NCBI RefSeq assembly: GCF_018977255.1
Contig: NW_024704744.1
Coordinates: 96,428,965-96,474,000 of the forward strand
Origin: Callorhinchus milii
Lineage: Eukaryota
DNA length: 45,036 bases
Direction of reading: 5' to 3'
The notes beneath the pieces were generated by a model. The model did not search any database. It saw only the letters and a program-made list of their open reading frames with translations, and had not been told where the DNA came from. Shown here in pieces: positions 17,532 through 18,252 of the stretch. Positions within the stretch are counted from its first letter, which is position 1; each line of letters begins with the position of its first letter. The translations under genes and the position numbers were made by a program.

Positions 17532-18252
17532 ATGGCCGCCGTCAGCAAGAAGAAAGGCCATTTGCTTTGGTTAGGCCTACTTTTGGTTTGTCTCGTCAAC
17601 CTTGGGGTCAGCCTCGAATTCAGCGGCGCCGCGGGACAATGGGCGAGGTTCCCAAAGTGGAACGCCTGCTGCGAGAGCGAGATGAGCTTCAGCATGAAGA
17701 CCAACATCTCCAGCGGGCTGCTGGTCTACTTCGACGACGAGGGCTTCTGCGACTTCCTGGAGCTGCTGATCGTGGACGGGTGCCTTCAGCTTCGCTTTTC
17801 GATCTTCTGCGCCGAGCCCGCCGTCCTCCTCTCCAGCGTTCAAGTGAACGACAGCAACTTGCACGCGGTCCACATCGTCAGGGACTTCAAGGAGACGACG
17901 CTCATCGTGGACAAGGTGGTCGAAACGGTCGAGGTCAAGTCGAAGAGGCGAGACATGACGGTCTTCAGCAACTTGTACGTGGGAGGAATCCCACCGGAGT
18001 TGCACTCGTCGGTGCTCTCGCTGACGTCGAGTTCGGTCGGGACTCGAGAGCCTTTCCGAGGATTGATAACTGACCTCAAGGTTGCAGATGTGACTGCAGC
18101 GCTCATTGACAGTCACGGAGTCAAGATCGACGCCAACTATCTTTGCTCAAATCACAGTAGATGCCTGAACGGCGGAACCTGCTCTGTGCTCGACGAGAAA
18201 GCAATTTGTGATTGTTCTCACACAGGCTTTCAAGGGGAAGACTGCAGCGAAG
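17532..18252 (+). CDS. NRXN1: Alpha-neurexin (NRXN1-like), first coding exon: signal peptide, LNS/laminin-G domain 1, EGF-like domain 1
   Basis: Hydrophobic signal peptide, then [59 protein letters not shown] and a six-cysteine EGF (C...CLNGGTC...[13 protein letters not shown]). Good Kozak context (acgATGg), high GC3 and CpG. Phase-1 donor GAAG|GTAAGG at 18252/18253, so the last ~20 residues of the listed ORF are intronic. Family assignment is secure; exact paralogue is less so. Confidence 0.95.

What the first reader, a model, noticed from the sequence alone, without database searches (positions are those of the whole stretch)
17532..18252. Mosaic alpha-neurexin: candidate fourth vertebrate neurexin (lost sister of NRXN1) rather than NRXN1 itself
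Seen: the exon has NRXN1-diagnostic blocks ([47 protein letters not shown]) and an EDNYVE microexon. At many other sites it has the NRXN2/NRXN3 state as I recall the human proteins. It has KTNIS with an N58 sequon (NRXN2 RTNAT, NRXN3 KTNVS; NRXN1 KTRSA). It has LIVDG.LQLRF and QVNDS (NRXN3 KQVNDS). It has [10 protein letters not shown] (NRXN2 PFRGLLANLK, NRXN3 FKGLILDLK; NRXN1 PFKGWIRDVR). It ends CDCSHTGF...CSE like NRXN2. It lacks the NRXN1 NTT sequon and the KW before VEVK. Established: mammals keep three NRXN genes, whereas two genome duplications could give four. Inference: this is either a fourth ohnologue retained in this lineage or a slow-evolving NRXN1 with ancestral states.
Basis: partly seen in the sequence, partly recalled or inferred. 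Interest (0 to 1): 0.75.

Follow-up and report, generated by a model that had tools for sequence, protein, structure and literature searches.

The report
Ordinary neurexin-1 of a cartilaginous fish
This is the first coding exon of a neurexin synapse-adhesion gene that groups with shark and ray neurexin-1 and is most likely the ordinary neurexin-1 of a chimaera; it looks like a mixture only when compared with the fast-changing human copy.

Summary
The exon (17532-18252: signal peptide, LNS1, EGF1) and the EDNYVE microexon (39163-39180) are real. The fourth-neurexin reading is not supported. The protein is 78-81% identical to shark and ray 'neurexin 1a', 61-70% to bony-vertebrate NRXN1 and 44-54% to NRXN2/3. 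It holds 19 of 21 NRXN1-diagnostic residues, 0 of 8 for NRXN2 and 0 of 17 for NRXN3. Trees put it with sharks and rays inside the NRXN1 clade (100/99), in species-tree order. A fourth ohnologue sister to NRXN1 needs NRXN2 and NRXN3 to be sisters, which AU tests reject (p 0.005 and 0.012). Still open: no genome was held, so loci could not be counted and synteny could not be read; no shark NRXN2 or NRXN3 was retrieved; and a published elephant-shark table lists two nrxn1-labelled models, one beside fshr and one with lhcgr.

The parts
17532..18252 (+). First coding exon of alpha-neurexin-1: signal peptide, LNS1, EGF1; ends in phase 1 at a GT donor
   Evidence: 79-81% identity to shark neurexin 1a over the whole query
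17532..17612 (+). Predicted signal peptide, residues 1-27
   Evidence: Hydrophobic stretch seen; the solved neurexin-1-alpha chain 3qcw_A aligns from query residue 28. No signal-peptide predictor was run.
17694..18086 (+). LNS1 (laminin G) core, residues 55-185
   Evidence: Pfam PF02210, E 2e-19
18144..18239 (+). EGF1, residues 205-236
   Evidence: Pfam PF00008, E 0.0008, below its curated cut-off; six cysteines align with NRXN1 EGF1
18253..39162 (+). 20.9 kb intron between the large exon and the microexon (inferred from splice signals and homology; not shown by reads)
   Evidence: no Pfam hit in the ORFs of 55 aa or more tested here
39163..39180 (+). 18-nt splice-site-1 microexon, E-D-N-Y-V-E-(G)
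   Evidence: same peptide follows DCSE in Stegostoma, Scyliorhinus, Narcine, Heptranchias and Amblyraja isoforms
17119..17132 (+). Candidate splice acceptor for the 5' untranslated part of the exon; unverified
   Evidence: Only pyrimidine-tract + YAG match between 16601 and 17535 under the pattern used

Best explanation
This is the first coding exon and one splice-site-1 microexon of an alpha-neurexin that groups with shark and ray neurexin-1, most likely the ordinary NRXN1 orthologue of a chimaera, which would work as a presynaptic adhesion protein like mammalian neurexin-1-alpha. The exon supplies the signal peptide and the LNS1-EGF1 module; optional microexons in splice site 1 would set the linker to LNS2-LNS6, which bind the ligands (inferred from the family; those exons lie outside the window). 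The 'mosaic' look comes from comparing with human: cartilaginous fishes kept states that bony-vertebrate NRXN1 later replaced (the N58 glycosylation sequon was lost; the N121 'NTT' sequon, W132 and W178 were gained), and mammalian NRXN1 then changed further.
For:: all 120 listed hits (of 5278) are named neurexin-1, 1a or 1a-like; the top 20 are five shark species at 79-81%; 19 of 21 NRXN1-diagnostic columns, 0 of 8 NRXN2, 0 of 17 NRXN3; of 84 differences from human NRXN1, 40 occur in another bony-vertebrate NRXN1 and 22 more in shark NRXN1. (29 rows, 213 columns, mixture model): window + 5 sharks/rays 100/96, inside NRXN1 100/99; cartilaginous, ray-finned and lobe-finned branches in species order. 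(26 rows, 1416 columns): the same, 100/99 and 100/100. AU rejects window+NRXN2 (p 0.0001), window+NRXN3 (p 0.00006) and window outside all named NRXN1 (p 0.0125). control: share of non-human states found in some NRXN2/3 row is 58% for the window, 52-56% for sharks, 54% gar, 52% coelacanth, 56% tarpon, 50% ostrich. N58 is in 3 of 3 cyclostome rows, 6 of 6 NRXN2 and 5 of 5 shark NRXN1, 0 of 8 bony NRXN1.
Against: No genome, so no locus count and no synteny. The names are database annotations. No chondrichthyan NRXN2 or NRXN3 was retrieved (0 of 120 listed), so the depth of the shark/bony split could not be compared across paralogues. A gene tree alone cannot exclude a duplication shortly before the jawed-vertebrate split followed by reciprocal loss. 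The S3 table of PMC4536197 lists two nrxn1-labelled models in elephant shark. In residues 148-207 the window is no closer to bony NRXN1 than to NRXN2 (for 163-192: 44% against 49%, sharks 69%). The frog and turtle controls are lower (39-40%) than the window's 58%.
Confidence: 0.92

Rival explanations
1. One of two NRXN1-like genes made by a local duplication of the neurexin + gonadotropin-receptor block around the origin of jawed vertebrates (or later in chimaeras), one copy beside FSHR and one beside LHCGR; bony vertebrates kept one copy.
For: PMC4536197 S3 table: nrxn1 LOC103186173 on the fshr scaffold (11,864-87,295; fshr from 181,701) and 'nrxn1//LOC103180846' written in the lhcgr row of another scaffold; the paper says fshr and lhcgr are not in tandem in elephant shark. 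The window's end branch (0.15) is longer than the sharks' path from the same fork (about 0.06-0.10) and it changes 3 of 105 columns invariant in the 13 other NRXN1 rows (W110L, E129V, K131E).
Against: The two models are as easily one gene split over two scaffolds, or NRXN2 mislabelled; I could not fetch them. Only one chondrichthyan NRXN1-type group appears in the 120 listed hits (list cut at 437 bits, so a copy just below would be missed). Gar and human NRXN1 also change 3 such invariant columns each, and the cluster of changes at 100-132 is not significant (p 0.066).
Confidence: 0.05
2. The fourth ohnologue from the two vertebrate genome duplications, sister of NRXN1, kept in cartilaginous fishes.
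For: The cartilaginous-fish clade is sister to all bony-vertebrate NRXN1, which is also where such a gene would fall; a few states are shared with NRXN2/3 and no bony NRXN1 (12 with sharks, 10 window only).
Against: It requires NRXN2 and NRXN3 to be the other sister pair: 0 of 1000 bootstrap trees show that (NRXN1+NRXN2 687, NRXN1+NRXN3 147), and AU rejects it at p 0.005 (17 rows, LG+G4) and p 0.012 (14 rows, mixture model, quick tree). It also needs sharks and rays to hold or have lost a separate true NRXN1; none was seen. The shared NRXN1 stem (0.11) is twice the branch to the bony-vertebrate crown (0.05), and stem plus branch (0.16) matches the NRXN2 and NRXN3 stems (0.18, 0.14), as expected for a speciation after the duplications.
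Confidence: 0.02
3. A chimeric exon made by gene conversion or recombination between NRXN1 and NRXN2 or NRXN3.
For: Residues 148-207 are about equally close to NRXN2 and bony NRXN1.
Against: In all 13 sliding windows of 30 residues the shark NRXN1 rows are the closest or tied group, and NRXN2 or NRXN3 never exceed them; 0 of 25 NRXN2/3-diagnostic columns are held.
Confidence: 0.01

Closest known systems
Elasmobranch neurexin 1a (Stegostoma tigrinum XP_048392679.1, Amblyraja radiata XP_032881155.1, Narcine bancroftii XP_069787502.1, Scyliorhinus, Heptranchias)
   Same: 78-81% identity with no gaps; [33 protein letters not shown], no NTT, no W132; identical EDNYVE microexon; sequons at N58, N106, N207
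   Different: 30 substitutions against the unanimous shark state, among them Y84C (an extra cysteine), W110L, E129V, K131E and loss of the N186 sequon
Bony-vertebrate NRXN1-alpha (gar, coelacanth, frog, bird, human; solved chains 3qcw_A and 3r05_A)
   Same: 61-70% identity; 19 of 21 diagnostic columns; one clade at 100/99 to 100/100
   Different: Lacks the N121 sequon, W132 and W178 of all 8 bony rows; keeps the N58 sequon they lack
NRXN2-alpha and NRXN3-alpha
   Same: Same domain order; shares ancestral states such as N58 and, with NRXN2, L178 and Y203
   Different: 46-54% and 44-47% identity; 0 of 8 and 0 of 17 diagnostic columns; grouping rejected by AU tests

Membership tests
Alpha-neurexin | N-terminal signal peptide, LNS1, EGF1, then splice site 1 | tested here: met
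Alpha-neurexin | LNS2-LNS6, EGF2-3, stalk, transmembrane helix and cytoplasmic tail | not testable with these tools
   Not in the window (tblastn one search finds only this exon); no genome held. The shark orthologue has six LNS domains and the tail.
NRXN1 orthologue | Falls in the NRXN1 clade in species-tree order | tested here: met
NRXN1 orthologue | Residues fixed in bony-vertebrate NRXN1 and absent from NRXN2/3 | tested here: met
   19 of 21 columns, from 8 NRXN1, 6 NRXN2 and 5 NRXN3 rows
NRXN1 orthologue | Position between ASB3/CHAC2 and FSHR/LHCGR/FOXN2 | not testable with these tools
   No neighbour gene in the window: 1 of 359 ORFs tested has a Pfam hit, the exon itself. The published elephant-shark table has nrxn1-labelled models with both fshr and lhcgr, but the window cannot be tied to either.
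NRXN1 orthologue | Only NRXN1-type locus in its genome | tested here: inconclusive
   One chondrichthyan group among 120 of 5278 hits listed; two nrxn1-labelled models in PMC4536197 S3
Fourth genome-duplication ohnologue, sister of NRXN1 | NRXN2 and NRXN3 form the other sister pair | tested here: not met
   0 of 1000 bootstraps; AU p 0.005 and 0.012
Fourth genome-duplication ohnologue, sister of NRXN1 | Separate true NRXN1, NRXN2 and NRXN3 in the same genome | not testable with these tools
   No genome; no shark NRXN2 or NRXN3 among the 120 listed
NRXN2 or NRXN3 (whole or by conversion tract) | Diagnostic residues, or a segment closest to NRXN2/3 | tested here: not met
   0 of 8 and 0 of 17; sliding windows; AU tests

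The most novel reading that the evidence does not exclude
Cartilaginous fishes carry two NRXN1-like genes, one beside FSHR and one beside LHCGR, left from a duplication of the neurexin + gonadotropin-receptor block; this exon belongs to one of them and is a hidden paralogue, a real fourth alpha-neurexin, of the single NRXN1 kept by bony vertebrates.
Probability: 0.06. Interest if true: 0.6.

Novelty: already known. Interest (0 to 1): 0.1.

Why it matters
As read here it matters little: it is the expected orthologue of a well-studied synaptic gene, and its shark and ray counterparts are already annotated. Two small points are useful: LNS1 of NRXN1 appears to have swapped one predicted N-glycan site (N58 out, N121 in) on the bony-vertebrate stem, and the trees favour, without proving, NRXN1 and NRXN2 as the sister pair, so a missing fourth neurexin should be sought as a sister of NRXN3. 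If the novel case held, it would add a neurexin gene to jawed vertebrates and explain how the FSHR-LHCGR tandem arose.

Tried and rejected
Whole genome: none held. Shark NRXN2/NRXN3: a hagfish query returned 14 lamprey rows, one teleost NRXN3 and one unnamed protein (16 hits); an NRXN2/NRXN3/hagfish profile returned teleost, gar, bird and lizard NRXN2/3 and no cartilaginous fish in the 120 listed of 4201. Three odd vertebrate-like branches in the first tree (P0183, P0195, P0198) looked like candidates for a fourth gene but are hagfish proteins. Among the 150 representatives listed, those at 45% or more to a reference fell nearest NRXN1, 2, 3, cyclostome or acorn-worm rows; one unnamed partial protein (P0218) was equidistant and stayed unplaced outside the three clades. 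The NRXN1+NRXN2 sister pairing had SH-aLRT 98 in a quick tree but only 69/87 in the careful one and was not recovered with 17 rows, so it is not claimed. Rows dropped: nine (long, partial or redundant rows, and the window); twelve. Expression: no RNA holder listed; no reads were laid, so splicing is not shown. The next splice-site-1 exon (GLAHLMMGDQ) is not in the window. ESM Atlas gave neurexin-type clusters and nothing on orthology. Ten literature searches found no paper with a chondrichthyan neurexin tree or a fourth vertebrate neurexin; the library lacks most subscription journals, and one catshark gonadotropin-receptor paper asked for by a recalled DOI was not held. Passages of PMC13069148, PMC4227674, PMC2211742 and PMC12691860 were read and added nothing. 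Earlier scan notes held nothing on neurexin.

Full report
Observation. The frame from ATG 17532 is open to a phase-1 donor at 18252/18253 and gives 240 residues: a hydrophobic leader, a laminin-G domain (PF02210, E 2e-19) and an EGF repeat (weak Pfam hit). The solved neurexin-1-alpha chain 3qcw_A aligns from residue 28 to 240 at 263 bits. An 18-nt exon at 39163-39180 has an acceptor, a donor and the right phase, and reads EDNYVE(G), identical to the splice-site-1 peptide of shark and ray NRXN1. Nothing else of the gene is in the window, and only this exon has a Pfam hit among 359 ORFs of 55 residues or more that passed a low-complexity filter.

Nearest relatives. All 120 listed hits of 5278 are named neurexin-1, 1a or 1a-like; the top 20 come from five sharks at 79-81%. 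Their 90% cluster also holds ray and skate proteins. Over LNS1-EGF1 the window is 78-81% identical to five sharks and rays, 61-70% to eight bony-vertebrate NRXN1, 46-54% to six NRXN2, 44-47% to five NRXN3 and 42-43% to three cyclostome rows. It branches as sister to all sharks and rays, so the source is likely a chimaera; earlier scan notes on this genome call it elephant shark (unchecked AI notes).

Is it a mosaic? Columns fixed in all eight bony NRXN1 and absent from NRXN2/3: the window has 19 of 21. The same count for NRXN2 is 0 of 8 and for NRXN3 0 of 17. Of 84 differences from human NRXN1, 40 are found in another bony-vertebrate NRXN1, 22 more in shark NRXN1 (12 of these also in NRXN2/3), 10 only in the window and some NRXN2/3 row, and 12 in the window alone. 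Site by site: N58 is in all five sharks, six of six NRXN2, two of five NRXN3 and three of three cyclostomes, so it is ancestral and was lost in bony NRXN1. The NTT sequon, W132 and W178 are in eight of eight bony NRXN1 and in no shark, so they look like bony-vertebrate gains. CDCSHTGF is identical in five of five sharks; E240 is in seven of eight bony NRXN1. As a control, the share of non-human states that occur in some NRXN2/3 row is 58% for the window, 52-56% for sharks, 54% for gar, 52% for coelacanth, 53-56% for teleosts, 50% for ostrich, and lower for frog and turtle (39-40%). Distance from the NRXN1 ancestor is 0.27 for the window, 0.20-0.22 for sharks, 0.27 for gar and 0.62 for human: the human reference is the outlier.

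Trees. Exon tree (29 rows, mixture model): window plus elasmobranchs 100/96, NRXN1 clade 100/99 on a stem of 0.42, bony vertebrates 97/92, ray-finned and lobe-finned groups as expected. Full-length tree (26 rows, 1416 columns; the window fills 17% of them, sharks stand in for the rest): 100/99 and 100/100. AU tests reject window+NRXN2 (p 0.0001), window+NRXN3 (p 0.00006) and the window outside all named NRXN1 (p 0.0125); full-length shark NRXN1 with NRXN2 or NRXN3 is rejected far more strongly.

The fourth-ohnologue idea. Two genome duplications give two sister pairs (established; the second being specific to jawed vertebrates is recalled). If a fourth gene is NRXN1's sister, NRXN2 and NRXN3 must be the other pair. 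That pair appears in 0 of 1000 bootstrap trees, against 687 for NRXN1+NRXN2 and 147 for NRXN1+NRXN3, and AU rejects it at p 0.005 and 0.012 with the mixture model. NRXN1+NRXN2 is not rejected (p 0.42) but is not established: the careful trees leave the base open. NRXN2 is thinly sampled (three ray-finned rows and one partial penguin protein), and no shark NRXN2 or NRXN3 was found. From memory, other families on human 2p, 11q13, 14q and 19q13 also pair 2p with 11q13; I found no paper for this and do not rely on it.

What remains open. No genome was held, so loci were not counted and neighbours not read. PMC4536197 (passages, section 38, one S1 row and parts 1 and 5 of 5 of the S3 table read, plus searches in it) reports that fshr and lhcgr are on different scaffolds in elephant shark, and its table lists one nrxn1 model 94 kb before fshr and names another in the lhcgr row without coordinates. 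This could be one gene split by assembly, NRXN2 mislabelled (the fshr-side model spans 75 kb, while one intron in this window is already 21 kb), or two NRXN1-like genes. I cannot tie the window to either model. A duplicate is not seen among the listed shark hits, but that list stops at 437 bits. The window's own changes (W110L, E129V, K131E, Y84C; 11 of 30 within 33 residues) hint at faster change but are not significant (p 0.066), and gar and human show as many changes at invariant columns.

How it likely works. By orthology (inferred): a presynaptic single-pass adhesion protein with six LNS and three EGF domains, spliced at six sites, from one of three genes (PMC6856630, three passages read), with most known ligands on LNS2 and LNS6 (PMC11294457, passages). 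This exon encodes the leader and the outermost LNS1-EGF1 unit; the microexon is one optional piece of the linker. Expression and splicing were not shown by reads. PMC3933685 (passages) mentions three lamprey neurexin genes and nrxn1-3 in jawed vertebrates, and the passages seen give no shark neurexin tree.

Verdict. Observation confirmed; headline interpretation not supported; fallback supported. An ordinary NRXN1 orthologue (0.92), already represented by annotated shark and ray genes. Ten searches found no report of a fourth vertebrate neurexin. Interest 0.1; the extra-locus reading keeps about 0.06.

Noticed in passing
PMC4536197 S3 table, outside the window: Elephant-shark fshr and lhcgr are on different scaffolds, each listed with an nrxn1-labelled model. 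If the compact 75 kb model beside fshr is really NRXN2, the cartilaginous-fish FSHR may be a genome-duplication paralogue of bony-vertebrate FSHR, and TSHR, LHCGR and FSHR would each sit beside a different neurexin (TSHR beside NRXN3 is recalled). Speculative and untested.
   Followed up: partly
window 17532-18252, residues 58, 121 and 186: Predicted N-glycan sites of NRXN1 LNS1 differ by lineage: N58 in cartilaginous fishes, NRXN2 and cyclostomes; N121 in all eight bony-vertebrate NRXN1 rows; the site near 185-187 is in all 13 other NRXN1 rows and lost in this one.
   Followed up: partly
window 17781-17783 and 17859-17861 (residues 84 and 110): An extra cysteine (C84; Y in sharks, R/K/H/Q elsewhere) and loss of the otherwise near-invariant W110 in LNS1; the gecko NRXN3 row also has L at 110. 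Effect on folding not tested.
   Followed up: no
window 7513-7583 (+), with related copies near 2841, 3723-3984, 9645, 22463, 32523 and 44071-44280: The Rfam and ARAGORN tRNA hit (33.5 bits, undefined anticodon) is the head of a dispersed repeat with at least seven diverged copies, most likely a tRNA-derived SINE.
   Followed up: yes
window 35487-36062 (-) and 28262-28879 (+): Open stretches that by eye resemble the C-terminal end of LINE2/CR1 reverse transcriptase (recalled likeness; no Pfam hit).
   Followed up: partly
P0126, P0128, P0131 (Amblyraja NRXN1 models): The skate models carry an extra 28-residue insert at splice site 1 before EDNYVE; no counterpart on the coding strand was found in this window's intron.
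   Followed up: partly
P0218 (unnamed, 1083 aa): A partial vertebrate-type neurexin about 66% identical to NRXN1 and NRXN2 references, unplaced outside the three gnathostome clades and the sampled cyclostome clade; probably another cyclostome copy, source not looked up.
   Followed up: partly
window 86-683: 27-bp tandem repeat, about 21 copies at 97% identity.
   Followed up: no
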